IMG/VR virus record: IMGVR_UViG_2675903324_000013
DNA length: 17,173 nt
Origin: a virus
Lineage: Duplodnaviria; Heunggongvirae; Uroviricota; Caudoviricetes
Reading direction: 5' to 3' (one strand)
The position numbers and the translations under genes were made by a program. The notes under the pieces are model-generated. The model saw nothing but the letters and a program-made list of their open reading frames with translations. It did no database searches and was not told the origin of the DNA. This document shows positions 1 to 17,173 of this stretch, piece by piece. Position 1 is the stretch's first letter, and the number at the start of each line of letters is the position of its first letter.

Positions 1-1230
1 ATGAGCAGAGCACTTAACAAACTGAGCGATACACAGCTGAGGAAAATCAACGGCACACCCGCCCAAAAAACAGCCTTTCTTAATGACGGTGGAAACCTGA
101 GCGTCAGGCATTCAACCAGTGGCCTTTTAACCTGGTATTTCACTTACAGGGCCGGAACGGGAAGGGGGGCACCACCGGAACGCATTAAGCTGGGAAATTA
201 TCCTGATCTGAGCCTGAAATCAGCCAGGGAAAAAGCCGCCCAGTGTCGCGCATGGCTGGCAGAGGGGAAAAATCCACGTCATGAAATGAATTACACCGTA
301 CAGGAAGCGTTAAAGCCGGTAACGGTTGGCGATGCGCTCACCTACTGGCTTGAGTCGTACGCAAAGGAAAACCGTGTGGATTATGACCCACTGAAAAAGC
401 GGCTAAATAATCACGTAATACAGCACATTGGCCCTATGCCGCTGGATAAATGCGAGCTACGGCACTGGCTGGCCTGTTTTGATCGGGTGGCAAAGAAAGC
501 CCCTGTTTCCGCCGGGTTCCTGCTACAGACATGCAAGCAGGCGCTTAAGTTCTGCAGGAAGCGGCGCTATGCAATCAGCAACGTTCTTGATGATATGAGT
601 GTGGCGGACGTTGGGAAAAAACCGGATATAAGTGAGCGTGTCTTAAGTAACAAAGAACTTGGCGAATTATTGCAGGCACTGGACAAAAAAATATTTTCCC
701 CTTACTACGTCGCACTAATCCGCCTCCTGATTGTTTTCGGATGCCGGACAGTAGAACTGAGGTTATCGGAGATCGGCGAGTGGGATTTTACCGAAATGCT
801 CTGGACCGTTCCGAAGGAGCACAGCAAAACGAAGGTAGCCATATTCCGGCCCATACCGGAAGCGATACTGCCGTTCGTCACGCAGCTGGTGGAGCAGAAC
901 AGGCACACGGGCTTATTGCTGGGGGAAGTGAAACAGGAAACCAGCGTATCGCAGTACGGCAGATTAGCGCACAGGAGGCTAAAACACCCTCAATGGTCAT
1001 TGCATGACATCCGGCGCACCTTTACAACCATGCTGAACGATTTAGGCGTTGATCCTCACGTCGTGGAGCAGCTTACAGGCCACCAGATGCCAGGAATGCA
1101 ACGCGTGTACAACCATTCCCGCTATATTGATGCGAAACGCAATGCGCTTGATATGTGGGTGGAGCGGTTGGAGATACTGGCGGGAACACATGAAAACGTA
1201 ACCACGCTACCAGTAACCAGAATAAAATAA
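1..1230 (+). CDS. int: Tyrosine recombinase / integrase, P4 (CP4-57) type
   Basis: 409-aa ORF starting at window base 1. C-terminal catalytic region carries the tyrosine-recombinase signature residues (…LHDIRRTFTT…, …GHQ…, …VYNHSRY…). Followed by an AlpA gene as in P4-like islands. Confidence 0.9.
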   Translation: MSRALNKLSDTQLRKINGTPAQKTAFLNDGGNLSVRHSTSGLLTWYFTYRAGTGRGAPPERIKLGNYPDLSLKSAREKAAQCRAWLAEGKNPRHEMNYTVQEALKPVTVGDALTYWLESYAKENRVDYDPLKKRLNNHVIQHIGPMPLDKCELRHWLACFDRVAKKAPVSAGFLLQTCKQALKFCRKRRYAISNVLDDMSVADVGKKPDISERVLSNKELGELLQALDKKIFSPYYVALIRLLIVFGCRTVELRLSEIGEWDFTEMLWTVPKEHSKTKVAIFRPIPEAILPFVTQLVEQNRHTGLLLGEVKQETSVSQYGRLAHRRLKHPQWSLHDIRRTFTTMLNDLGVDPHVVEQLTGHQMPGMQRVYNHSRYIDAKRNALDMWVERLEILAGTHENVTTLPVTRIK

Positions 1231-1247: not shown

Positions 1248-1263
1248 CAGTATGCGCATACTG
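1248..1263. promoter_or_regulatory. 16-bp perfect palindrome CAGTATGCGCATACTG just downstream of int stop
   Basis: Reverse complement is identical to the sequence itself; lies in the int-alpA intergenic region. Confidence 0.35.
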
Positions 1264-1279
1264 GATAAGTGCACAGATA

Positions 1280-1319
1280 CAACGTGAAACAATGTGCAAC
1301 AACGTGACACAATCACGAA
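1280..1319. repeat. Four tandem 10-bp phased repeats (caacgtgaaa / caatgtgcaa / caacgtgaca / caatcacgaa)
   Basis: Directly visible with exact 10-bp periodicity between int and alpA; candidate binding array for a recombination-directionality factor or regulator. Confidence 0.5.
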
Positions 1320-1419
1320 CAAGAGGCCAAAAAGAATACAGATTTGTAAGTTGCTGATTTTTAATGCTCAGCTGGTTTTTTATACATTAGTGAATTACGC
1401 GTTAAAGCGTGCGAAAAAA

Positions 1420-1448
1420 GGCATAAAACAAGATTTTATGCCTTTGTA
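1420..1448 (+). terminator. Intrinsic terminator-like hairpin downstream of int
   Basis: 9-bp stem GGCATAAAA / TTTTATGCC with loop CAAGA, A-run before and T-rich tract after, so it could act in both directions. Confidence 0.5.
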
Positions 1449-1604
1449 TTAACATGAATTTAAATGATTTTATCCTGATTATTCCTCTTTCTGTAAACCA
1501 TGCGACACCAACATTTGCCAACTCTGAATCATCCTGACACAATCAGACACATCCCAACGCAATAGAACACGAAATAACTCTTTAAGAAACGAAAGGGGGC
1601 AATA

Positions 1605-1793
1605 GTGTTAAGCACTGATCGGTTTATACGTGAAAAAGAATGCGAAAAGCTAACAGGCCTTAGCCGCTCATGCCGCTACCGCCTGGAAAAGGCCGGACAA
1701 TTCCCATCACGTCGTAAACTTGGTGGGCGTTCTGTTGGCTGGTCTTTATCTGAGGTTTTGGCCTGGAAGGATAGCTGCAAGGCAGTTCACTAA
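1605..1793 (+). CDS. alpA: AlpA-family phage regulatory protein (small HTH activator / excisionase-like)
   Basis: GTG start 5 nt after a GGGGG Shine-Dalgarno; 62 aa with the AlpA pattern …LTGLSRS.RYRL…GQFP…KLGGRSVGW…EV..W. Confidence 0.85.
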   Translation: MLSTDRFIREKECEKLTGLSRSCRYRLEKAGQFPSRRKLGGRSVGWSLSEVLAWKDSCKAVH

Positions 1794-4443: not shown

Positions 4444-4743
4444 ATGAAACTTAAATATTCTGGCTTAACTGCCAGTGGCAACACTCACCCTAAATTTACG
4501 CGCGGTGATATTTACCGCGACCAGTACGGCGGCACGGTAATGATTAAGGGCGTGGCGGGACGGTGCGTAACTTACCGCCGTGAAGGTTACGAATATGATT
4601 GCGTGATGCCTGTTTATCAGTTCCGGCGTGATTTTTCTCTGGTACAGACCGCGCCGCATAACGTGCCCACCAGCAACGCCAGGGCACGGGCAAACATCCA
4701 GAAGCTGAAAACCATGATTAACGGATTCAGGGGCAAGAAATGA
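4444..4743 (+). CDS. Hypothetical protein (99 aa)
   Basis: GGAGAA RBS; stop overlaps the rep start (ATGA). Confidence 0.5.
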   Translation: MKLKYSGLTASGNTHPKFTRGDIYRDQYGGTVMIKGVAGRCVTYRREGYEYDCVMPVYQFRRDFSLVQTAPHNVPTSNARARANIQKLKTMINGFRGKK

Positions 4744-6137
4744 AAAGCGCACCGAACTTAAAAAAACAGCCTTACGACAAGATGACCGAAGTCATCATTT
4801 TTGCGGGTAGTGATGCGTGGGCACATGCGAAACAGTGGCAGGAACAGGACGGGCGACTGGCTGGCGATAATGTGCCTCCCATTGTGCTGGCTGATGATCA
4901 ACTGGATGAACTGGCAGACCTGAGAATCATCGACGAGGGGCGCTATTGTGTCCGGCTGTACAAGGCAGGCCACATCAGGCCATCAAATATTAATGCCATT
5001 GCGCACAAGCTGGCGGCGGCGGGCGTAACTGATGCGAATTATTACCCCGAAGGGATACACAGCCAGAAGCGGGAGAACTGGCGCGAATATCTGGAACGGG
5101 AGCGGGGGAAAAAGCCAGGGGAAGAACACCACCAGCGAAAAACCACGCTACCGATGAGCGTTGGATCTGCCGGATATGACACGCAATTAGATTACGTGGT
5201 AAAGGGGATTATTCCGGCATCGTCGCTATGCAGCATATACGGGGCAAGCGGTTCCTATAAATCATTCCTTGCGGGTTCGTGGGCGTGTCACGTTTCCACG
5301 GGCCGCCAGTGGGGAGGCCGCAGGGTGGCGCATGGCGCTGTTCTCTATGTGGTTGGTGAAGGCGGTATCGGCGTTCCGCGTCGTGTAAAAGCCTGGGAGG
5401 TTGTGCACGGTGAGCAGGTGAAAAATCTGTATCTGGTAAACCGTCCAGTTTTTCCGGCTGTCCCGCTTGATGTTGATGAACTGGTTATCGCTGCCCGTCA
5501 GGTGGAGCGGGAAACGGGTAAACCTGTACGCATGATTATTCTTGATACTCTGGCGCGTTGCTTTGGTGGCAATGATGAAAATGATTCCCGTGATATGGGG
5601 GCGTTTATCCGTGGGTGTGACGAGCTTAAACGGCGCACAGGGGCCACGGTGCTGGTGGTTCACCATTCCGGCAAGGATGAGACGAAAGGCGCGCGCGGTT
5701 CCAGTGCATTTCGTGCTTCGCTGGATGCTGAATACCGGATACGCAGGGAGGACGCAGGAAGCGAAGCGCTGGTTATCTCATGCACCAAAATGAAGGACGC
5801 GGAGGAACTCAAAGAGGCTGCCTATGATTTGCGGGTGGTGGAGCTTTTTACCGACGCTGACGGGGAGTTAATCACGTCGCTGGTGGTGGTGGATAAGCCG
5901 CGCCCTCCCGTTGAACTGGAGCGCATCGAGGAGGCAGGCAACAAGACGGAAAACCATACCGCACTATGGGGGTGCATCCGTTCACGCACACAGAACGGCG
6001 ACAAGTGCACGATCCCGCTGTTACGTGATGACATGAAACGGCTTGGGTATGACGTGAAAAATATGCGGCGATGGTTAGCCAAACTGGAAAAAGACGCCGT
6101 GATTTACATTGATGGTGATGATGTAGGACCACTGTAA
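4740..6137 (+). CDS. Replication protein: RepA-like / AAA_25-type RecA-fold ATPase with C-terminal presumed DNA-binding region
   Basis: P-loop-like motif GASGSYKS (non-canonical), Walker-B-like RMIILDTLAR, and LVVHHSGKDETKGARGSSAF typical of RepA/AAA_25 helicase-loader proteins; immediately followed by an iteron array. Confidence 0.65.
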   Translation: MKSAPNLKKQPYDKMTEVIIFAGSDAWAHAKQWQEQDGRLAGDNVPPIVLADDQLDELADLRIIDEGRYCVRLYKAGHIRPSNINAIAHKLAAAGVTDANYYPEGIHSQKRENWREYLERERGKKPGEEHHQRKTTLPMSVGSAGYDTQLDYVVKGIIPASSLCSIYGASGSYKSFLAGSWACHVSTGRQWGGRRVAHGAVLYVVGEGGIGVPRRVKAWEVVHGEQVKNLYLVNRPVFPAVPLDVDELVIAARQVERETGKPVRMIILDTLARCFGGNDENDSRDMGAFIRGCDELKRRTGATVLVVHHSGKDETKGARGSSAFRASLDAEYRIRREDAGSEALVISCTKMKDAEELKEAAYDLRVVELFTDADGELITSLVVVDKPRPPVELERIEEAGNKTENHTALWGCIRSRTQNGDKCTIPLLRDDMKRLGYDVKNMRRWLAKLEKDAVIYIDGDDVGPL

Positions 6138-7591: not shown

Positions 7592-7615
7592 AGCCGGAGC
7601 AATCCGGCTTTTTTT
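7592..7615 (+). terminator. Strong intrinsic terminator T1 (stem AGCCGGA / TCCGGCT, GCAA tetraloop, U7)
   Basis: Read directly; follows the stop at 7569. Confidence 0.7.
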
Positions 7616-7710
7616 GCGTCATTTGAAATGGTATGGCGCACTACTGGCTTTTCGTCACGGTCCGGCATAGTTACTATCTGAAACAAACAGACACAACAGA
7701 GGAAAAAACA

Positions 7711-7935
7711 ATGCCGACGAAATTTGATGAGATATTAAAACAGCGTGATAAATACCATGCTGACAACATGGAGACGATGAACATCACTGATTACCGAGCA
7801 TTCCTGGAAACGGGGGCGCTGATTGAAAAGGATCATCATGGTTTTGTTCGTTGCGCGCTATCCGGTGAAATGCTGGCGGTAAATCCTGAACAGACAGATG
7901 CATTGATAGAATTTCTGAAAGGGATCAGGGACTGA
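7711..7935 (+). CDS. Hypothetical protein (74 aa) in a terminator-bracketed cassette (moron-like)
   Basis: ATG 7711 with GAGGA RBS; possible own promoter (-10 TACTAT at 7672-7677); flanked by two copies of the same terminator. Confidence 0.5.
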   Translation: MPTKFDEILKQRDKYHADNMETMNITDYRAFLETGALIEKDHHGFVRCALSGEMLAVNPEQTDALIEFLKGIRD

Positions 7936-7945
7936 GCACCCATAC

Positions 7946-7967
7946 AGCCGGAGCAATCCGGCTTTTT
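7946..7967 (+). terminator. Intrinsic terminator T2, 23 bp identical to T1 (cagccggagcaatccggcttttt)
   Basis: Read directly. Confidence 0.7.
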
Positions 7968-7986
7968 GTTATTTTTTGTAAATTAT

Positions 7987-8016
7987 TTGTTCGTGGTTGT
8001 TCCACGTTGTTCACTG
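7987..8016. repeat. Three tandem 10-bp repeats TTGTTCgtgg / TTGTTCcacg / TTGTTCactg overlapping a candidate late promoter
   Basis: 10-bp phasing; the third unit is a possible -35 (TTGTTC), with TATTTT at 8029-8034 after a 16-bp spacer; the 15-mer ttgttccacgttgtt recurs at 15574-15588. Confidence 0.45.
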
Positions 8017-8071
8017 AGCGGATCGGCATATTTTACCCGAACTGAATCATGATTATTCTCGCCCGTGGTGC

Positions 8072-8226: not shown

Positions 8227-9384
8227 ATGCCGAGAATAATCGAATTACGCCAGCAGAAAACCGCCATTAAAAATCAGATGCGCGACATGCTGGAGAACGC
8301 GGAAAAAGAAAACCGCAGTCTTAACGATGCTGAGGGCGCAAAATTTGACGAATTACGCGCTAAAGCTGAATCCCTCGATAAAGACATTTCCCGCCTTGAA
8401 GCCATTGCAGACGAAGAGCGCAGCAAGCCAGGTAAAAGCAGCCAGACCACTGACCCCGCAGAACTACGCAGCTACATTCTGACAGGTGAAACCCGCGCAT
8501 TAAGTACAGGCGTTCCCGCTGATGGTGGTTATACCGTTATCCCCGAACTGAACACCGAAATCATGCGAATGCTGGCGGATGAGTCCACCATGCGCCGCAT
8601 CTGTACCGTGAAAAAAATCAGCAGCAACGAGTTTAAGCAGCTTGTTTCCGCTGGCGGTGCGACCGTTAACCACGGTGAAGAGGGTAAGGCACGCGAACAG
8701 ACCAGCACCCCGCAGATTAACGAGGTGAGCATTAAGCTGTATCCGGTCTATGCGTACCCGCGCACCACACAGGAAATCGTGGATTTTTCCGATGTGGACA
8801 TCCTTTCATGGCTGACGGGTGAGATTGGCGACACCTTCACGGAAACCGAAGAAAGCGATCTGGTTGTGGGCGACGGTGACAAAAAAGCAAAAGGTTTTTT
8901 ATCCGTACCCCGTGCAGAGAAGAACGACAAAGAGCGTGATTTTGGTACGTTGCAGGTAATTAAACCTTCCGAATCTCTGGCGTGGACATCTGCGGACCCG
9001 CTGATCGACCTGAAATTTGCATTACGTAAAAAATACCGCAAAAACGCGGTCTGGGTGGTTAACTCCACGACGGCGGCAAAACTCCAGAAGGTGAAGAACG
9101 CGAACGGTGATTACATCTGGCGTGACCGTTTACAGGCGGGTGATCCTGATACGTTGCTGGGCCTTCCGGTCGAATATCTGGAGTTTATGCCTGATAACGT
9201 TATTGCCCTGGGTGACTTCAAACGCGGTTACTACATTGTTGATCACGAAACAGGTGTTCGCACCAGACCGGACAACCTCACAGAGCCGGGCTTCATCAAA
9301 ATTTTCACGCAGAAATATTTAGGCGGTGGCGTGGTGGATTCGAACGCGATCAAGATTCTGGAACTGCCACAGGACGACGATTAA
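8227..9384 (+). CDS. Major capsid protein, HK97 fold, with N-terminal coiled-coil delta domain
   Basis: 385 aa; coiled-coil N-terminus (IELRQQKTAIKNQMRDMLENAEKE…) and a C-terminal region paralleling HK97 gp5 (…VWVVNSTTAAKL…GDYIW…LLGLPVEYLEFMP…GDFKRGYYIVDHETG…). Confidence 0.9.
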   Translation: MPRIIELRQQKTAIKNQMRDMLENAEKENRSLNDAEGAKFDELRAKAESLDKDISRLEAIADEERSKPGKSSQTTDPAELRSYILTGETRALSTGVPADGGYTVIPELNTEIMRMLADESTMRRICTVKKISSNEFKQLVSAGGATVNHGEEGKAREQTSTPQINEVSIKLYPVYAYPRTTQEIVDFSDVDILSWLTGEIGDTFTETEESDLVVGDGDKKAKGFLSVPRAEKNDKERDFGTLQVIKPSESLAWTSADPLIDLKFALRKKYRKNAVWVVNSTTAAKLQKVKNANGDYIWRDRLQAGDPDTLLGLPVEYLEFMPDNVIALGDFKRGYYIVDHETGVRTRPDNLTEPGFIKIFTQKYLGGGVVDSNAIKILELPQDDD

Positions 9385-11544: not shown

Positions 11545-11837
11545 CAGAAGAACTTATCACCCTGGAAGAAGTGAAACTCCATTGCCGTATCGATGGAGAC
11601 GAGGAAGACCAGTTAATCAGCGGATACATTGCCGCATCGCTTGAGGCGTGCCAGATACACATAGGCAGGCGCTTTGATGACGGGCTGGAGTTCACGCCAG
11701 CCATAAAGATTGGCTGCATGATGTTTATCGCTCACCTGTATGAGAATCGCCAGATTGTCGCGGATAACGCAAAAACACGCGTACCCATGACGATTGGCGC
11801 ACTCTGGACGGCTTACCGTGATGTGGGGGTGTACTGA
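11541..11837 (+). CDS. Head-tail connector protein, gp6-like
   Basis: …LEEVKLHCRIDGDEEDQLISGYIAAS…AHLYENRQ…, typical of gp6-like connector proteins; GAGGG RBS. Confidence 0.7.
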   Translation: MTEELITLEEVKLHCRIDGDEEDQLISGYIAASLEACQIHIGRRFDDGLEFTPAIKIGCMMFIAHLYENRQIVADNAKTRVPMTIGALWTAYRDVGVY

Positions 11838-12277
11838 TGCCGTGGCAACCATTAAGACGATGCACAGAACCAGGCTGTAACAGGCGCGTTAAATCCGGCA
11901 AGTGTGAGGAGCACAGGCGGGCGGCATGGCGTGCAGAGGATGCCAGACGAGGACACCGCCGCGCGCGTGGATATTCCAGACAGTGGGACAAATACCGCGC
12001 CATGTATCTGAGTAAAAACCCGTTATGCGTGCGATGCCTTGAGAAGGGGATATATACGCCCGCCGTGGTGGTGGATCACATTATCCCGATTAATGGCGGT
12101 GATGATGTTCTCTTCTGGCCCGAATGGAACCATCAACCATTGTGCCAGGCGTGTCATAACCAGAAAACGAAATGGCTTGATCCGGCAACAAAAAGCAAGC
12201 GTGCCGCAGGTGGATTTCGTGAAGAGGAAGAACGGGCCGCTAACCGCAATAACTGGATGTATGACGCTGATGAATGA
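11837..12277 (+). CDS. HNH endonuclease (packaging-associated)
   Basis: Cys-rich N-terminus and …CVRC…VVDHIIPINGG…NHQPLCQACHNQKT…; GGGGG RBS; located just upstream of terS as in HNH-dependent cos packaging systems. Confidence 0.85.
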   Translation: MPWQPLRRCTEPGCNRRVKSGKCEEHRRAAWRAEDARRGHRRARGYSRQWDKYRAMYLSKNPLCVRCLEKGIYTPAVVVDHIIPINGGDDVLFWPEWNHQPLCQACHNQKTKWLDPATKSKRAAGGFREEEERAANRNNWMYDADE

Positions 12278-12566: not shown

Positions 12567-12923
12567 ATGTCAAGACCACCGAAAGCCCCCGCCTACCTGG
12601 ATGATATCGCCGTGAAGCAGTGGCGGGAAAAATCTAGGCAGCTTGCGGAACGGGGAGACCTGACCCCCGCCGACTGGAGCAATCTGGAACTGTATTGTGT
12701 CAACTACTCCATTTACCGGAAAGCCGTTGCAGACCTTGCGGCGCGCGGGTTCAGCATTGTTAACAGTCAGGGCGGTGAGAGCAGAAACCCCGCATTAAGC
12801 GCAAAATCCGACGCTGAAAGAGTGATGATAAAAATGGCCTCTTTGCTCGGTTTTGACCCGATAAGCCGCCGTAAAAATCCACCGGAAACAGAAGAAGAGG
12901 ACGAGCTTGACCGCCTGGAATAA
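12567..12923 (+). CDS. Terminase small subunit (P27-family-like)
   Basis: 118 aa, …NLELYCVNYSIYRKAVADL…NP…LGFDPISRR…, acidic C-terminus; immediately precedes TerL. Confidence 0.75.
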   Translation: MSRPPKAPAYLDDIAVKQWREKSRQLAERGDLTPADWSNLELYCVNYSIYRKAVADLAARGFSIVNSQGGESRNPALSAKSDAERVMIKMASLLGFDPISRRKNPPETEEEDELDRLE

Positions 12924-14568
12924 GTACGCAGAAGACGTAAAAACGGGCAAAATTCCGGCCTGTAAACGGCTGAAACAGGCCGTTAAACGGTACTTTTCGG
13001 ACCTTGAAAGCCCCCTTTACACGTTCGATCGTGAGGTTGTGGAGCGGTTTATTGCCTTTTCCAGGGTGTGCCCGCACGTAAAAGGGCCGATGCGTGGCAG
13101 ATCCATTGAGCTGGAGCCGTGGCAGCAGTTCGCCTTTGCGTGCATCCTCGGCTTTAAGGTTAAGGCCACCGGACGGCGCAAATACACGAGCGCCTTTATC
13201 GAAGTGCCGCGCAAAAATGCGAAATCCACGACCGCCGCGATTCTGGCTAACTGGTTTCTGATTATGGAGAACGGGCAGCAGGATATTTACACCGCAGCGG
13301 TGAGCCGTGACCAGGCGCGGATCGTTTTTGATGATGCGCGTCAGATGTGCCTTTTATCCCGACCGTTACGCAGGCGGGTGAATATTCAGGCCCACAAGGT
13401 GATGCACCCGAAAAGCAACAGCCTGTTAAAGCCGCTGGCAGCAAAAGCGGCAACCATCGAGGGCACAAACCCAAGCCTTTCCATCGTGGACGAATACCAC
13501 CTACACCCCGATAACGGCGTTTATTCCGCGCTTGAGCTGGGGATGGGCGCACGTCCCGAAGGGCTGTTATTTGCCATTACCACATCGGGCAGTAACGTCG
13601 TTTCAGCCTGTAAGCAGCACTATGATTATTGCTGCCAGATCCTGGACGGCGAAGAGGTCAACGATTCAATTTTTGTGCTGATTTACGAGCTGGACGACGA
13701 AAACGAGGTTGATGATCCGGCGATGTGGATAAAGGCTAACCCTAACATCGATGTTTCCGTGGATCGTGAAAAACTGGCCTCAACCATCCAGAAAGCGCGG
13801 GGTATTCCGTCGCAATGGGTGGAGATGATGACAAAGCGATTTAATATCTGGTGCCAGGGGGCTACCCCGTGGATGGGTAACGGCGCATGGGCTGAGTGTG
13901 CCGGAACGTTCACGGAGGAAGATTTACACGGGCAGGAGTGTTACGCGGGGCTGGACTTATCATCAACCAGCGATATTTCCAGCGTGTGCTATGCCTTTCC
14001 GGTCGGTAAAAATATCATGCTGGTTTCCCGTCATTATCTGCCGGAGTTCCAGCTACAGAACCCCGCCAATAAAAACCGCGCTGTCTATCGCCAGTGGGCT
14101 AAAGCGGGCTGGATACGCACAACGCCAGGTGACTGCATTGATTACGACCGGATCAGAGATGACATCATGCAGGATGCGGAGAAATTTAATATCAGGCTGG
14201 TGGGCTTTGATACGTGGAACGCCACGCATCTCAGGACGCAATTACAGGGGGCTGGTTTTGAGGTGGAGCCGTTCCCGCAAACCTACCTCAGATTCAGTCC
14301 GGCGGCGAAATCGTTCGAAGTTTTTGTTAACCGCAGGGTGATTGTGCATCGTGGCGATCCGGTGTTGTCCTGGTCGATGAGTAACGTCGTGATGCAGAGT
14401 GACGCGAACGCCAATATCAAGCCGAACAAGAAAAAATCACCGAACAAGATAGACCCGAGCGTAGCGGCGCTGATGGCGTTTGGTACATTCCAGGCAGAGC
14501 ATGAGGATTTTGCTTTTGATATAAGCGACAGCCACCGCCAGAAACTGGAAGAATTTAGCGGGGTGTAA
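12907..14568 (+). CDS. Terminase large subunit (ATPase-nuclease)
   Basis: 553 aa; apparent TTG start at 12907 overlapping the terS end by 17 nt, with AGAGGA upstream; N-terminal pattern …W..YAEDV.TGKI…, then ATPase and nuclease-like regions. Confidence 0.9.
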   Translation: MTAWNKYAEDVKTGKIPACKRLKQAVKRYFSDLESPLYTFDREVVERFIAFSRVCPHVKGPMRGRSIELEPWQQFAFACILGFKVKATGRRKYTSAFIEVPRKNAKSTTAAILANWFLIMENGQQDIYTAAVSRDQARIVFDDARQMCLLSRPLRRRVNIQAHKVMHPKSNSLLKPLAAKAATIEGTNPSLSIVDEYHLHPDNGVYSALELGMGARPEGLLFAITTSGSNVVSACKQHYDYCCQILDGEEVNDSIFVLIYELDDENEVDDPAMWIKANPNIDVSVDREKLASTIQKARGIPSQWVEMMTKRFNIWCQGATPWMGNGAWAECAGTFTEEDLHGQECYAGLDLSSTSDISSVCYAFPVGKNIMLVSRHYLPEFQLQNPANKNRAVYRQWAKAGWIRTTPGDCIDYDRIRDDIMQDAEKFNIRLVGFDTWNATHLRTQLQGAGFEVEPFPQTYLRFSPAAKSFEVFVNRRVIVHRGDPVLSWSMSNVVMQSDANANIKPNKKKSPNKIDPSVAALMAFGTFQAEHEDFAFDISDSHRQKLEEFSGV

Positions 14569-14581
14569 TGAGGTCAGCAGC

Positions 14582-14863
14582 ATGACAGAAGCCGAAATAC
14601 TGCGATTAATCCGCCGCGTCTCTGGAATCAGCCAGCAGGCTGACGAACAGACCACGCAGCCGGACAGCGTGACAGCCGAAAATTATGCGCGTGTTGTTGC
14701 TGAGGTGATGCGCCGTGATGGTATCCAGCTTAATGATGCGGATATGCGCGACATACGGATCCGCGTTCTGGAAATGCTGGCCTACAATCGCCGCGTTGAA
14801 CTGTATCGGGAGAAGGAGAAAATCACGTACCACTGGAAGAAGCCGGAGCGGTTACGGCGGTAA
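14582..14863 (+). CDS. Hypothetical protein (93 aa), terminal gene of the island
   Basis: GAGG RBS 8 nt upstream; the stop overlaps the first copy of the CGGCGGTAACT repeat. Confidence 0.5.
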   Translation: MTEAEILRLIRRVSGISQQADEQTTQPDSVTAENYARVVAEVMRRDGIQLNDADMRDIRIRVLEMLAYNRRVELYREKEKITYHWKKPERLRR

Positions 14864-15135
14864 CTTGTTGATTAAAAGGCGGCTCAATTCTGAGCTGGGT
14901 AGCTGACGGCGGTAACTGTTTGATATTCCCGATAACGCAAAATTGCGCTGACTACATCCCTCACATCTGAGGACTGTTAACCAGCAGGCCGGAATATATT
15001 CACAAACTACGAAATTTTCGTAGTTTAATTACTCGCCAGTTTATCGTTAACTAGTTGATATTTTCGGAAACCTCAATTTGAGGAAGTCGGCGCGGTAACT
15101 GTTTTATATTCCCGATAGCGCAAAAATGCGCGGTC
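14854..15135. repeat. Direct repeats R1 (14854-14873, partial), R2 (14905-14952) and R3 (15089-15135) sharing CGG(C)GGTAACTGTTTkATATTCCCGATArCGCAAAAwTGCGC; candidate att copies
   Basis: R2 and R3 match over about 40 bp with 2-3 differences; each carries the near-palindrome CGCAAAATTGCG; palindromes CTACGAAATTTTCGTAG (15007-15023) and CCTCAATTTGAGG (15071-15083) lie between them. Confidence 0.5.
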
Positions 15136-15160
15136 GGGCAGAATGAGCACCACCTCAATC

Positions 15161-15195
15161 GTGACGGAGAGTGACAACCAGTGACACACCGTGAC
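15161..15195. repeat. Four GTGAC pentamers in exact 10-bp phasing (gtgacggaga gtgacaacca gtgacacacc gtgacaaaaa)
   Basis: Read directly; similar GTGA-containing 10-bp phased array near int at 1280-1319. Confidence 0.55.
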
Positions 15196-15248
15196 AAAAA
15201 GACGGTTTAACCGTTCATTAAAAATCGACGTGATTTTGTGCTTTCCGG

Positions 15249-15272
15249 ATGACGTGGCCAACGTCATTTTTT
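15249..15272 (+). terminator. Intrinsic terminator-like hairpin (stem ATGACGT / ACGTCAT, loop GGCCA, then T6)
   Basis: Read directly; no annotated plus-strand gene ends here. Confidence 0.4.
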
Positions 15273-15712
15273 AGCGAAAAATTCTGATTAAGGTCACTGG
15301 CTGAATGGTCATAATGACCACGCAGACCATCGAGGCAACCATAGCGATCATCGTTACGGTTGGAGCTTTTCCGCCATTGGTGGAAAAGGTGCACATCTGG
15401 ATCATCATTACGGTGATCAAGGGTATGTAAAACCCACCAGCCTGATTAAAGGTTAACCGGAAAAAAAATCCGGTAGCCCCGTTATGGGGATCCCCATATC
15501 GACATTAACGCCCCTCATGAATTGGTGCGCTTCCCCCTGGAAAGATTACCCGCCTGTATATTTCTTGTGTCTATTTGTTCCACGTTGTTTCATACAGTGC
15601 ACCGAACGGTGTAGTTAATGGTGTAGTCAATTTGCGATTTTTGGCACTTTTTCAATGATAATTGTTTAATTAAATCAATGGCTTGACCTGGTATAGTGAT
15701 AAAAGGACATAT

Positions 15713-17173
15713 TTATTCATCTTTCGGCGCAGAATGCTGGCGACCAAAAATCACCTCCATCCGCGCACCGCCCAGCATGCTCTCTCCGGCGACGATTTTA
15801 CCCTCATATTGCTCGGTGATTTCGCGGGCTACCGCCAGCCCTACACCTTGCCCAGGGCGTAAAGTATCAACCCGTTGACCACGGTCGAAAATGACCTCTC
15901 GCTTGCTTAATGGAATACCGGGGCCATCATCCTCGACCACAATATAGAGATGCTCGTCGGTTTGCCTTGCAGAAATTTCGACAAACTCGAGGCAATATTT
16001 ACAGGCATTATCCAGCACGTTGCCCATCACCTCGACAAAATCGTTCTGCTCACCGACAAAGCTGATCTCTGGCGAAATATCGAGAGAGATATTGACCCCT
16101 TTGCGTTGATACACTTTGTTCAGCGCTGAGGTGAGATTGTCCAGCAGTGGGGCGACCGGATGCAGCTCGCGGCTGAGCAATGTCCCGCCGCGCATACTGG
16201 CACGATGCAGGTAGTAGCCAATTTGCTGTGAAATGCGGCTGATTTGCTCCAGCATTACCGGCTCAGCATCACTGACGCTCATCTTTTCACTACGCAGAGA
16301 ACGCAGCGTACTTTGCAGCACCGCCAGTGGCGTTTTCAGACTATGGGTCAGGTCGGTGAGCGTCGTACGGTATTTGTCGTAACGTTCGCGTTCACTTTTT
16401 AACAATCGGTTCAGGTTTCGTACCAGACTGGTCAGTTCTCGCGTTGTGGCTGGATTGAGCAATTCGCGGTTATGTTCTTCCAGTTCGCGGACTTCTTTTG
16501 CCAGGGCTTCGATGGGGCGTAAACTCCACCAGGCGGCGACCCACAGCAGCGGGATCACTAACAGCAGATTGGCTGAGAGCACATAGATAAACCAGCTCCA
16601 GACCATATAGGAACTTTTTAGCTCCACCGGAATGGTATCCACCACCACAATGGTTAATTTTGGCATCCGCGATGTTGCCGGGTAGACGTTTACTGCCACC
16701 GAGTGGGTCATCTCCGCGTCGTCATCATCTTCCCGCACTTCCTGCAACTGTTGCTGTATCGAATGATCTCCACTCAGCAAGAGGCTGGTATCGTTAACAT
16801 CCGCTTCAATTTCATGAAAACCATTCGATTTCAGCCAGTCAGGCTGGATCATCTTCATCAGCCAGGGCACGTCACGTTGCGCCCATAAAAGCTGCCCGTT
16901 CTCATCATAAATTAGCGTCATGGTGGGGCTTTGCTTGTCGATATTTTCGGGTAACTCGACATGCAACTTATTGTTTTCCCACTTCGCAAGGGTATAGAAC
17001 AGATTGCTCTCGCCACGTAACAGCCGAAACGTAGTTTTATCGAAACTGACGCTATAACCGATCAGCGCGACCATTCCGTAGGCAAGCGAAAGCACCAGTA
17101 CTACCGCAGCCGTTGCCAACAGAAAACGTACCCGCAGTGAGAGCGGGAAAAAAAGACGCAGTAATTTTTTCAT
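15713..17173 (-). CDS. phoQ: Sensor histidine kinase PhoQ (PhoPQ two-component system), full length
   Basis: 486-aa product whose sequence I recognise as Escherichia coli PhoQ (N-terminus [77 protein letters not shown]…, acidic patch [11 protein letters not shown]-box and ATP-binding motifs); start codon at the last bases of the window. Confidence 0.97.

What the first reader, a model, noticed from the sequence alone, without database searches (positions are those of the whole stretch)
1248..1319. Palindrome and 10-bp phased GTGA repeats between int and alpA, echoed at the right junction
A perfect 16-bp palindrome (1248-1263) and four 10-bp phased CAAYGTG units (1280-1319) lie between int and alpA. 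A related array of four exactly phased GTGAC pentamers sits at the right end (15161-15195). Helical-phase direct repeats are the typical binding mode of excisionase or recombination-directionality factors and of arm-type integrase sites, so AlpA or Int may bind both arrays to couple regulation and excision.
Basis: partly seen in the sequence, partly recalled or inferred. Interest (0 to 1): 0.45.

Follow-up and report, generated by a model that had tools for sequence, protein, structure and literature searches.

The report
Phased AlpA-type operator arrays in PICI
The repeats between int and alpA are a real, conserved array of 10-bp-phased ACAA units that recurs at both ends of this phage satellite and in front of its capsid operon. 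It is most likely the docking site of the satellite's small AlpA protein, an ordinary P4/186-style arrangement rather than a new kind of element.

Summary
The window is a 15.4-kb capsid-forming PICI (EcCIEDL933-like) inserted between roxA and phoQ of E. coli.

- **Observation.** The 16-bp palindrome (1248-1263) and the four GTGAC pentamers (15161-15195) are exactly as described. Only three of the four CAAYGTG units fit.
- **The conserved periodic element.** It is (A/C)ACAA, five units at exact 10-bp phase (1276-1325), present in all 13 related islands compared. Copy number changes by whole 10-bp units.
- **Where else it occurs.** The same array, inverted, lies on both att arms: window 15565-15588, and upstream of int, outside the window. 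It also lies upstream of the capsid operon (7966-8012). No such array appeared in 300 shuffles.
- **Integrase sites.** On both arms the array abuts a tandem 12-bp repeat (GGTGTAGTTAAT x2, 15608-15631). This repeat co-varies with the integrase N-domain, so it is the likely arm-type site.
- **Binder.** AlpA is 47% identical to P4 Vis and is the best candidate for the ACAA arrays. No binding has been tested.
- **What is not supported.** The GTGAC array is a different motif, about 510 bp inside the junction and absent from most relatives. The palindrome is specific to one subfamily.

Verdict: a real feature, a new member of a known kind, of moderate interest.

The parts
1..1230 (+). int: P4-type tyrosine integrase with an N-terminal arm-DNA-binding domain
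   Evidence: Pfam Arm-DNA-bind_3 5.5e-18 and Phage_integrase 2.4e-16; 25% identity to P4 Int.
1248..1263 (.). Perfect 16-bp palindrome CAGTATGCGCATACTG; subfamily-specific accessory site
   Evidence: Invariant in 9 of the 13 aligned int-alpA loci, and also in L001 and L026, while the next 14 bp vary. Absent from L011-L014 and L023 (EcCICFT073). As RNA it is only a 6-8 bp hairpin (-5.0 to -6.6 kcal/mol) with no T-run after it.
1259..1278 (.). LexA-box-like sequence TACTGGATAAGTGCACAGAT (CTGG-N8-ACAG), overlapping the right half of the palindrome; candidate only
   Evidence: Second-best hit in the window to a LexA matrix built from boxes recalled from memory: 13.7 bits. Shuffle maxima average 10.2, 95th percentile 14.3. 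CTG...CAG is kept in every palindrome-bearing locus, and L006 reads a canonical CTGT-N8-ACAG. Borderline.
1276..1325 (+). Five-unit head-to-tail array, period exactly 10 bp: GATACAACGT GAAACAATGT GCAACAACGT GACACAATCA CGAACAAGAG. Proposed AlpA operator array.
   Evidence: Present in all 13 homologous loci across four integration sites. L010 has exactly one extra 10-bp unit; EcCICFT073 has six units.
1347..1359 (-). IHF-consensus-like site AATCAGCAACTTA (WATCARNNNNTTR)
   Evidence: Read. The consensus is kept in diverged relatives although the bases differ (L011 AATCAAATGGTTA, L013 AATCAACTTTTTA). The consensus is from my own knowledge; no statistics were run.
1417..1445 (.). Conserved 12-bp-stem hairpin flanked by an A-run and a T-run: probable bidirectional terminator between int and the alpA promoter
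   Evidence: -13.8 kcal/mol on the + strand, -13.4 on the - strand. L014 keeps the pairing through an A>G plus T>C double change; L011 and L013 show the G-T intermediate.
1515..1543 (+). Putative alpA promoter: TTGCCA, 17 bp, CACAAT (TG-extended)
   Evidence: The 17-bp spacing to a (C/A)ACAAT hexamer is kept in relatives whose spacer sequence differs.
1536..1575 (+). CA-rich 10-bp units in the alpA leader (GACACAATCA GACACATCCC AACGCAATAG AACACGAAAT); weak resemblance to the ACAA unit
   Evidence: L014 carries one exact extra 10-bp unit. The ACAA-matrix score is 9.9, no better than shuffled sequence.
1605..1793 (+). alpA: 62-aa AlpA/Vis-family helix-turn-helix (HTH) protein, proposed binder of the arrays
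   Evidence: Pfam Phage_AlpA 5e-18. 47% identity to P4 Vis, which is annotated 'excisionase and transcriptional regulator'. PDB 8c3t 'AlpA family' E=2.6e-6. 95% identical to the AlpA of EcCICFT073.
7680..7699 (+). Two ACAA units (GAAACAAACA GACACAACAG) just upstream of the ribosome-binding site of a 74-codon ORF (7711-7935)
   Evidence: Matrix scan score 20.8, against a null 95th percentile of 13.8 and a null maximum of 20.5; sequence.
7966..8012 (-). Five-unit ACAA array (TTGT on the + strand at 7966, 7976, 7987, 7997, 8007), directly after a terminator and upstream of the capsid operon
   Evidence: Conserved in the cf-PICIs L015 and L026. Absent from the non-capsid-forming islands L001 and L023.
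8007..8034 (+). Putative activator-dependent promoter of the capsid operon: -35 TTGTTC (which is the last array unit), 16 bp, -10 TATTTT
   Evidence: Read. Not called by the consensus scan. Inference.
15161..15195 (+). Four exactly phased GTGAC units: a separate conserved motif inside a right-end accessory cassette; binder unknown
   Evidence: Found in 266 E. coli genomes, including islands at clpS (L024, 4 units) and yifB (L025, 5 units). Absent from L001, L015 and L023. ACAA-matrix score 6.6, below the null mean.
15565..15588 (-). Right-arm (P') ACAA array, three units (TTGT on the + strand at 15565, 15575, 15585): the true junction echo
   Evidence: Identical in L001, L015, L023, L025 and L026. 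The units lie at -23, -33 and -43 from the arm repeat, in the same register as on the left arm.
15608..15631 (+). Tandem 12-bp repeat GGTGTAGTTAAT GGTGTAGTCAAT: proposed Int arm-type sites. Its twin lies 23 bp upstream of the int ATG, outside the window.
   Evidence: All four copies switch to GGTGTAGTCAC/TT in the tqsA-type islands, whose Int N-domain is 80% identical. P4 has annotated tandem 12-bp 'attP arm sequence repeat' pairs in the same layout.
15705..15714 (.). Right copy of the 10-bp direct repeat GGACATATTT (att core and insertion boundary), overlapping the phoQ stop codon
   Evidence: Comparison with the empty K-12 site and with attL. In L026 the two copies are 15,382 bp apart.

Best explanation
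The repeats at 1276-1325 are one of four head-to-tail arrays of 10-bp units (core ACAA; TTGT on the other strand) carried by this capsid-forming phage satellite. They are most likely operator arrays for the island's own AlpA protein, a 62-residue relative of P4 Vis. Such proteins bind as cooperative head-to-tail filaments, one monomer per helical turn, and bend the DNA.

Inferred mechanism:
- The helper phage switches on alpA.
- AlpA fills the arrays on both att arms. Each array sits in fixed register next to a tandem pair of integrase arm-type sites, so AlpA helps Int build the excision complex.
- AlpA also fills the array whose last unit overlaps the -35 of the capsid-operon promoter and turns on the packaging genes.
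- AlpA fills the array between int and alpA. This array lies in the int 3' untranslated region, about 190 bp upstream of the alpA promoter, with an IHF-like site and a terminator hairpin in between. It is the best candidate for the element behind AlpA's published positive autoregulation.

The 16-bp palindrome is a subfamily-specific add-on next to that array. It is probably a site for a dimeric protein, and a LexA-like box overlaps it. The GTGAC array is an unrelated cassette element.

Shown here: the arrays, their phase, their conservation, their four positions, and the co-variation of the other repeat with Int. Inferred: that AlpA is the binder, and what the int-alpA copy does.
For: - **Statistics.** There are three chains of phased [AC]ACAA in the window plus its attL flank, four when the bare ACAA core is scored. 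Shuffles of the [AC]ACAA test gave 0 of 300 with any chain.
- **Conservation.** The int-alpA array is present in 13 of 13 loci from four integration sites (roxA, tqsA, yifB, abgR). ACAA is invariant while the inter-unit bases drift. Copy number changes by exact 10-bp steps.
- **Two motifs, two proteins.** The tandem repeat GGTGTAGTTAAT changes to GGTGTAGTCAC/TT in all four copies of the tqsA-type islands. Their Int N-domain is 80% identical, with changes in the SVRHSTSGLL strand. AlpA stays 98% identical and the ACAA arrays are unchanged.
- **Fixed register.** Array units lie at -13/-23/-33/-43 (left arm) and -23/-33/-43 (right arm) from the arm repeat.
- **A promoter far from att.** One array overlaps a -35 about 7.7 kb from either att end. 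That fits a transcription factor better than an integrase.
- **Independence from other modules.** The arrays are the same in islands with three different replication proteins and different late modules. Only Int, AlpA and a few small ORFs are shared.
- **AlpA family.** Pfam PF05930 and 47% identity to P4 Vis, annotated excisionase and transcriptional regulator. P4 has the same layout of phased units followed by tandem arm repeats in front of int.
- **Experiments on a near-identical protein.** EcCICFT073 sits at the same site, its AlpA is 95% identical, and it has a six-unit array. There AlpA activates its own promoter, does not change Pint, and on its own triggers excision and replication (PMC6092414).
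- **Known binding mode.** RDFs bind direct repeats one helical turn apart. Some, such as Apl of phage 186, bind both att and promoters (PMC7498355).
Against: - No binding data exist for any PICI AlpA in the searchable literature.
- AlpA and the arrays are too conserved in this sample to show co-variation with each other. The assignment rests on elimination and analogy.
- Three other small ORFs (orf93, orf89, DUF4222) are also shared by all four islands compared.
- The int-alpA array points the opposite way, relative to the downstream gene, from the arrays upstream of int and of the capsid operon. It also lies about 190 bp and one terminator away from the predicted alpA promoter. That is an unusual geometry for a sigma-70 activator, so its specific role is uncertain.
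- In EcCICFT073 AlpA did not affect Pint, although an array lies just upstream of int.
- The classical PICIs L001 and L023 have no array in front of their late genes.
- The promoters named here are consensus readings. The capsid one was not called by the scan.
Confidence: 0.55

Rival explanations
1. The phased ACAA units are integrase arm-type sites: Int's N-terminal domain binds them, including the copy between int and alpA, to autoregulate or to build the intasome.
For: Int carries an Arm-DNA-bind_3 domain. Two of the arrays are in the att arms. Arm-type sites are often direct repeats.
Against: A better candidate occupies that role. The tandem 12-bp repeat on both arms co-varies in all four copies with the Int N-domain, while the ACAA arrays do not change. 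P4's annotated arm repeats are likewise tandem 12-mers in the same positions. Arrays at the capsid promoter and in the int 3' UTR have no obvious use for Int.
Confidence: 0.08
2. The arrays are bound by something other than AlpA, or act mainly as phased intrinsically bent DNA. The binder could be a helper-phage activator (the still unidentified inducer of alpA, for example a CII-like protein, since lambda CII reads TTGC-N6-TTGC across a -35), a host nucleoid protein, or another conserved island ORF.
For: TTGT-N6-TTGT across a -35 has the geometry of CII sites (my own knowledge). alpA is switched on by helper phages through an unknown factor (PMC6092414). orf93, orf89 and DUF4222 are also shared by all four islands. 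Units such as GAAACAA contain short A-tracts in phase.
Against: Arrays have 3-6 units and also sit on both att arms, where an RDF is expected. Cloned alpA alone gives excision and replication without any phage. The helper phages are diverse (lambda, phi80, Kapi1-type) while the arrays are invariant. Strict conservation of the four bases ACAA argues for base-specific recognition rather than bending alone.
Confidence: 0.17
3. For the palindrome part only: 1248-1278 is an SOS operator. LexA binds CTGG-N8-ACAG, which overlaps the palindrome and abuts the first array unit, so this subfamily would sense DNA damage directly.
For: The two best LexA-matrix hits of the whole window both fall in this 374-bp spacer (1259 at 13.7 bits; 1370 at 14.7 bits). 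CTG and CAG are kept in all palindrome-bearing loci while the interior varies, and L006 is a canonical CTGT-N8-ACAG scoring 16.1 bits. The roughly 20 bp that distinguish this subfamily from EcCICFT073 contain exactly this box.
Against: The scores are at the bottom of the range of real boxes and near the 95th percentile of shuffles (14.3). The matrix came from boxes recalled from memory. The 1370 hit lacks the essential CAG. alpA of EcCICFT073 is not SOS-responsive, although that island lacks the box. No promoter that the box would occlude was identified.
Confidence: 0.15
4. The int-alpA array is a decaying duplicate of an att arm (a pseudo-arm) with no present function, and the palindrome is a chance or hitch-hiking sequence.
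For: Read on the minus strand, the array ends ...TTTCACGTTGTATCTGTGCAC..., which resembles both arms (...TTTCACGTTGTAGCCCTTTGTGCAAC... and ...TTCCACGTTGTTTCATACAGTGCACC...).
Against: ACAA cores are intact in every unit of every locus while the flanks drift. There are gains of whole 10-bp units. The array is retained across islands down to about 71% identity in this spacer. The palindrome shows no substitutions in 9 loci while the adjacent 14 bp vary at several positions.
Confidence: 0.04
5. The arrays are replication iterons bound by the island's initiator, as in P4, where the alpha protein binds TGTTCACC repeats.
For: Units such as GTTGTTCAC contain TGTTCAC, which resembles the P4 type-1 iteron (my own knowledge; P4 ori repeats are annotated).
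Against: The same arrays occur in islands with three unrelated replication proteins: a RepA-like AAA_25 helicase here, DUF927 in L015, and a primase-family protein in EcCICFT073. None of the arrays lies next to the replication gene, where PICI origins are reported to be (PMC10111431).
Confidence: 0.02

Closest known systems
Satellite phage P4: Vis (excisionase and late-promoter regulator) and the P4 attP
   Same: AlpA is 47% identical to Vis. P4 attP has tandem 12-bp arm repeats on both sides of the core, one pair directly upstream of int, preceded by 10-bp phased units. From my own memory of Cali et al. 2004 (not read here), Vis binds two boxes between int and the core, bends the DNA, is needed for excision, and also regulates promoters.
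   Different: The unit sequences differ: nTCC in P4 against ACAA here, and TGGGGGCA against GGTGTAGTTAAT for the arm repeats. Int is only 25% identical. P4 vis is far from int, whereas here alpA follows int. No Vis-type array was seen upstream of P4 vis. This island has arrays on both arms.
Phage 186 Apl and P2 Cox: dual-purpose RDFs that bind att and the lysis-lysogeny promoters
   Same: Operators are direct repeats one helical turn apart. Binding is cooperative and head-to-tail with low sequence specificity. Arrays occur both at att and at promoters (PMC7498355). The gene order att, int, regulatory spacer, RDF gene is the same.
   Different: Apl and Cox repress promoters, whereas PICI AlpA is an activator (PMC6092414). 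There is no immunity repressor gene between int and the RDF gene here. Apl and Cox are not in the AlpA Pfam family (my own knowledge).
Doubled attP motif of helper-embedded PICIs (tgTGTATTGCa x2 at -81 and +132 from the attP centre)
   Same: A tandem doubled motif, co-oriented, one copy on each side of the core at similar distances. Here the repeat centres lie about 90 bp upstream and about 141 bp downstream of the middle of the 10-bp core.
   Different: The motif is spelled differently. That paper reported the motif as unique to HE-PICIs and left the binder open (Int arm domain, AlpA or unknown). Here co-variation points to Int.
EcCIEDL933 and EcCICFT073 (prototype capsid-forming and classical E. 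coli PICIs)
   Same: The int, alpA and att site are the same. EcCICFT073 is at roxA-phoQ with the same Int and AlpA family. The capsid, protease, portal, HNH, TerS and TerL module and the 15.4-kb size match the description of EcCIEDL933.
   Different: Neither paper, nor any other found in the library, describes AlpA binding sites or these arrays.

Membership tests
RDF/excisionase operator array (lambda Xis, P2 Cox, 186 Apl, P4 Vis type) | At least 3 co-oriented direct repeats spaced one helical turn (10-11 bp) apart | tested here: met
   Five units at exactly 10 bp (1279-1319); the other arrays have 3-5 units; 0 of 300 shuffles produce such a chain.
RDF/excisionase operator array (lambda Xis, P2 Cox, 186 Apl, P4 Vis type) | Sites lie in an att arm, between the core and the Int arm-type sites, in fixed register with them | tested here: met
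   Met for the arm copies: window 15565-15588 next to 15608-15631, and L001 2912-2945 next to 2955-2978, in the same -23/-33/-43 register. The 1276-1325 copy itself is not in an arm.
RDF/excisionase operator array (lambda Xis, P2 Cox, 186 Apl, P4 Vis type) | A small helix-turn-helix RDF gene is encoded by the same element | tested here: met
   alpA 1605-1793: PF05930 at 5e-18, 47% identity to P4 Vis, PDB 8c3t.
RDF/excisionase operator array (lambda Xis, P2 Cox, 186 Apl, P4 Vis type) | The RDF binds the repeats cooperatively and bends the DNA, and the repeats are needed for excision | not testable with these tools
   Needs EMSA or footprinting and excision assays. No such data were found for a PICI AlpA.
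RDF/excisionase operator array (lambda Xis, P2 Cox, 186 Apl, P4 Vis type) | Unit sequence co-varies with the RDF recognition helix | tested here: inconclusive
   AlpA is at least 94% identical in all E. coli loci. More distant AlpAs (63-70% identity; L016, L018, L020) have similar TGTT(C/T) units. P4 Vis (47%) has different units. Consistent, but too few data points.
Integrase arm-type sites (P4-like heterobivalent Int) | Repeats co-vary with the Int N-terminal arm-binding domain | tested here: not met
   The ACAA arrays are identical between roxA-type and tqsA-type islands, whose Int N-domains are 80% identical. The tandem GGTGTAGTnAnT repeat is what changes.
Integrase arm-type sites (P4-like heterobivalent Int) | Located in the att arms only | tested here: not met
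   Two of the four arrays are far from att: 1276-1325 and 7966-8012.
LexA (SOS) box, for 1259-1278 | CTGT-N8-ACAG palindrome scoring within the range of known boxes | tested here: inconclusive
   CTGG-N8-ACAG scores 13.7 bits, against 12.9-26.3 for the training boxes and a shuffle 95th percentile of 14.3. L006 is canonical at 16.1 bits. The matrix was built from memory.
Intrinsic terminator, for the palindrome 1248-1263 | G+C-rich stem-loop followed by a T-run on the transcribed strand | tested here: not met
   Not called by the scan. The stem is weak (-5.0 to -6.6 kcal/mol). The T-run precedes the stem on the + strand and A's follow it on the - strand.
Replication-origin iterons | Repeats specific to, and adjacent to, the cognate initiator gene | tested here: not met
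   The arrays are unchanged in islands with three different replication proteins and are not adjacent to them.
Capsid-forming PICI (context of the finding) | int, alpA and a replication gene plus capsid, protease, portal, head-completion, HNH, TerS and TerL genes, no tail or lysis genes, 10-15 kb, at a dedicated att site | tested here: met
   Pfam hits. 15,382 bp between the direct repeats in L026. The criteria are those of bioRxiv 10.1101/2022.09.08.507074.

The most novel reading that the evidence does not exclude
The TTGT-N6-TTGT arrays are not (only) AlpA sites. They would be the docking sites of the still unidentified helper-phage factor that induces Gram-negative PICIs, for example a CII-like activator that reads phased tetramers across a -35. 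One phage protein would then directly trigger alpA expression, capsid-operon expression and remodelling of the att arms.
Probability: 0.08. Interest if true: 0.7.

Novelty: new member of a known kind. Interest (0 to 1): 0.38.

Why it matters
AlpA is described as the master switch of Gram-negative PICIs. It is required for excision, replication and transfer, and it activates its own promoter. I found no mapped AlpA binding site in the searchable literature.

This analysis yields a concrete, testable map for the EcCIEDL933/EcCICFT073 family:
- a 10-bp unit (S-n-AACAA-y-g-n) present as four arrays, on both att arms, in the int-alpA spacer and at the capsid-operon promoter;
- a separate tandem 12-bp repeat that behaves as the integrase arm site.

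If AlpA binds all four arrays, one small protein would physically couple excision with switching on the satellite's own capsid genes. The same cis-elements could then be used to predict AlpA regulons, to find att arms in other PICIs, and to engineer PICI-based delivery vehicles.

It is not a new principle. P4 Vis, 186 Apl and P2 Cox already work this way.

Tried and rejected
- **Rfam.** Nothing reached the gathering threshold in the whole window. At relaxed thresholds there were only chance-level hits in the int-alpA spacer (BSnc120, 27 bits against a cutoff of 114) and none at the right end.
- **The search for homologous proteins.** Searching with AlpA gave only 19 hits. The distant ones (L016, L018, L020) have an extra gene between int and alpA, so their spacer is not comparable. 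Their int-proximal arms still show the same layout of phased units followed by a tandem repeat.
- **Leftward promoter in the spacer.** I tested whether the spacer array drives an AlpA-dependent leftward promoter (-35 TTGTAT, 16 bp, -10 TATGCG inside the palindrome), by analogy with the capsid promoter. The EcCICFT073-type spacer has no -10-like hexamer at that distance, so I dropped it as the main model.
- **AlpA as an antiterminator.** The P. aeruginosa AlpA mechanism is known to me from memory only. I consider it unlikely here because this AlpA has only about 4 residues before the HTH. This was not tested.
- **Consensus folding of the 1417-1445 hairpin.** RNAalifold failed because the alignment is one base out of register in L011-L014. 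The compensatory change was read by eye instead.
- **P4 comparison.** I checked whether P4 has Vis-type phased units upstream of vis. Only the unrelated 'ori type 2' GCTTTAA repeats are there.
- **GTGAC array.** Pfam finds nothing for the small ORFs around it. Its binder and function remain unexplained.
Full report
**Context.** The window starts at the ATG of a P4-type integrase gene (1-1230) and ends inside phoQ (15713-17173, minus strand). Between them lie the following genes:
- alpA (1605-1793) and a RepA-like helicase (4740-6137);
- an SSB gene;
- a complete head and packaging module: capsid 8227-9384, protease, portal, head-completion protein, HNH 11837-12277, TerS, and TerL 12907-14568.

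No tail or lysis genes are present. This is a capsid-forming PICI of the EcCIEDL933 type (criteria). Comparison with the empty K-12 site shows an insertion bounded by the direct repeat GGACATATTT: the right copy is at 15705-15714 and overlaps the phoQ stop codon, and the left copy lies about 175 bp upstream of the int ATG, outside the window. In a 99.8%-identical island the two copies are 15,382 bp apart. EcCICFT073, the experimentally studied classical PICI, sits at the same site, and its AlpA is 95% identical.

**Checking the observation.** The palindrome CAGTATGCGCATACTG (1248-1263) is exact. The window has three perfect palindromes of at least 16 bp against 0.29 expected. Of the four claimed CAAYGTG units, three fit; the fourth is CAATCAC. 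GTGAC occurs at 15161, 15171, 15181 and 15191 exactly as stated.

**What is really periodic.** I aligned the int-alpA spacer from 13 loci, taken from four integration sites (roxA, tqsA, yifB, abgR) and down to about 71% identity. The invariant element is ACAA, repeated every 10 bp.
- The window has five units: GATACAACGT GAAACAATGT GCAACAACGT GACACAATCA CGAACAAGAG (1276-1325).
- One O157 island has exactly one extra 10-bp unit. The EcCICFT073 type has six units.
- Gain and loss in whole helical turns is what a phase-constrained protein-binding array should show.

**The same array elsewhere.** A search for phased ACAA on both strands found three more arrays and nothing else; 300 shuffles gave no chain at all. 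All three are inverted relative to the spacer copy.
- Four units lie 56-89 bp upstream of the int ATG, on the left att arm.
- Three units lie at 15565-15588, on the right att arm.
- Five units lie at 7966-8012. They follow an intrinsic terminator, and the last unit (TTGTTC) sits 16 bp upstream of TATTTT, a plausible activator-dependent promoter for the capsid operon.

The capsid array is conserved in two other capsid-forming islands and absent from two classical PICIs. A matrix scan also picked up two units at 7680-7699.

**A second, distinct repeat marks the integrase sites.**
- On both arms the ACAA array abuts a tandem 12-mer, GGTGTAGTTAAT x2. The right-arm copy is at window 15608-15631; the left-arm copy ends 23 bp before the int ATG.
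- Array units sit at -23, -33 and -43 from the tandem repeat on both arms.
- In the tqsA-type islands all four copies read GGTGTAGTCAC/TT instead. Their Int N-domain is only 80% identical, with changes clustered in the SVRHSTSGLL strand. AlpA remains 98% identical and the ACAA arrays are unchanged.
- The tandem repeat therefore behaves as the Int arm-type site, and the ACAA arrays belong to something else.
- P4 itself carries annotated tandem 12-bp 'attP arm sequence repeat' pairs on both sides of its core. One pair lies directly upstream of int and is preceded by 10-bp phased units.
- A similarly placed doubled motif was reported for helper-embedded PICIs, with the binder left open.

**Who binds the ACAA arrays.**
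- The arrays are identical in islands that differ in replication protein (three types) and in late module. Only Int, AlpA and a few small ORFs are common to all.
- AlpA belongs to PF05930 and is 47% identical to P4 Vis, which is annotated excisionase and transcriptional regulator.
- RDFs characteristically bind head-to-tail to direct repeats one helical turn apart, with high cooperativity and low specificity. Dual-purpose RDFs such as Apl bind both att and promoters (PMC7498355).
- In EcCICFT073, AlpA activates its own promoter, does not affect Pint, and when expressed alone causes excision and replication (PMC6092414).
- I found no report of a mapped PICI AlpA site.
- AlpA is therefore the best candidate, by elimination and analogy. 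No binding evidence exists.

**What the int-alpA copy does.** This is the least certain part.
- The spacer reads, in order: T-rich tract, palindrome, array, an IHF-consensus site kept in diverged relatives (1347-1359), a conserved block, a hairpin with a compensatory change and runs of A and T on either side (1417-1445), the predicted alpA promoter (1515-1543), and a CA-rich leader.
- The array is about 190 bp upstream of that promoter and points away from it.
- I propose that it is the upstream element for AlpA autoregulation, helped by an IHF bend.
- A role in limiting int read-through, or as a threshold-setting decoy, cannot be excluded.

**The palindrome.**
- It is invariant in nine of the 13 aligned int-alpA loci (and in L001 and L026) while its flank drifts.
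- It is absent from the EcCICFT073-type spacer, which lacks about 20 bp here.
- It is not terminator-like.
- Those extra bases create CTGG-N8-ACAG. This is the second-best LexA-matrix hit in the window, and one relative has a canonical box. The score is borderline and the matrix was built from memory.

**The GTGAC array.**
- It is real and conserved: it occurs in 266 genomes, including islands at clpS and yifB, one of them with five units.
- It scores below random against the ACAA matrix.
- It lies in one of several right-end accessory cassettes, each bounded by a 40-nt junction repeat.
- It is absent from three close relatives.
- Its function is unexplained.

**Verdict.** The feature is real and functional-looking. 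The arrangement is a P4/186-style device in a PICI: a new member of a known kind.

Noticed in passing
window 14850-15300 (repeat copies at 14909-14948, 15044-15083, 15092-15131); L023 14650-14900: The right-end accessory region is built of short cassettes. Each begins with a roughly 40-nt junction repeat (GCGGTAACTGTTTGATATTCCCGATAACGCAAAATTGCGC), and the first copy overlaps the stop codon of the last conserved ORF. The same TAACnnGTTGATATTyyCG joints occur in EcCICFT073. This looks like a recombination hotspot for swapping accessory modules.
   Followed up: partly
window 15271-15396 (minus strand), with 15404-15431, 15202-15214 and 15251-15272: An unannotated 41-codon hydrophobic ORF (MCTFSTNGGKAPTVTMIAMVASMVCVVIMTIQPVTLIRIFR). 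It has a promoter-like site upstream, a terminator-like hairpin downstream, and a convergent hairpin plus T-run on the plus strand. The layout resembles a type I toxin-antitoxin pair. There is no Pfam hit.
   Followed up: partly
window 1417-1497: The conserved hairpin has its better T-run on the minus strand, and a TTTACA...TAAAAT promoter-like pair (1497 down to 1467) points leftward. A roughly 50-nt leftward small RNA between the alpA promoter and the array is possible. There is no Rfam match above chance.
   Followed up: partly
window 7592-7609 and 7946-7963: Two identical 18-nt terminator hairpins (AGCCGGAGCAATCCGGCT plus a T-run) bracket the 74-codon ORF that precedes the capsid-operon array. 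The same hairpin follows the SSB/PerC region in L001 and EcCICFT073.
   Followed up: no
window 15483-15498 and 2505-2520: Two further perfect 16-bp palindromes. TATGGGGATCCCCATA lies in the conserved right arm about 70 bp left of the arm array and is present in every island examined. ATGTGTATATACACAT lies inside the variable zone after alpA.
   Followed up: no
window 1536-1575; L014 spacer: The alpA leader consists of CA-rich 10-bp units (ACACAA, ACACAT, ACGCAA, ACACGA) that start at the predicted -10. One relative has an exact extra 10-bp unit (ACCCAACCCA). This may be a second, weaker operator or an RNA-level element.
   Followed up: partly
L027 (phage P4) 3942-3965, 4078-4097, 4151-4174; window 15608-15631: The 'doubled attP motif' reported as unique to helper-embedded PICIs (PMC10111431) has differently spelled counterparts with similar geometry in this PICI family and in P4 itself. 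It is probably a general feature of P4-type integrases.
   Followed up: partly
L005, L006, L008 (tqsA site); L013 (yifB); L014 (abgR); L024 (clpS): Islands with near-identical AlpA and arm architecture use at least five chromosomal sites whose cores differ (GGACATATTT, ATAACAGCA, and others). The tqsA insertion truncates the tqsA gene.
   Followed up: partly
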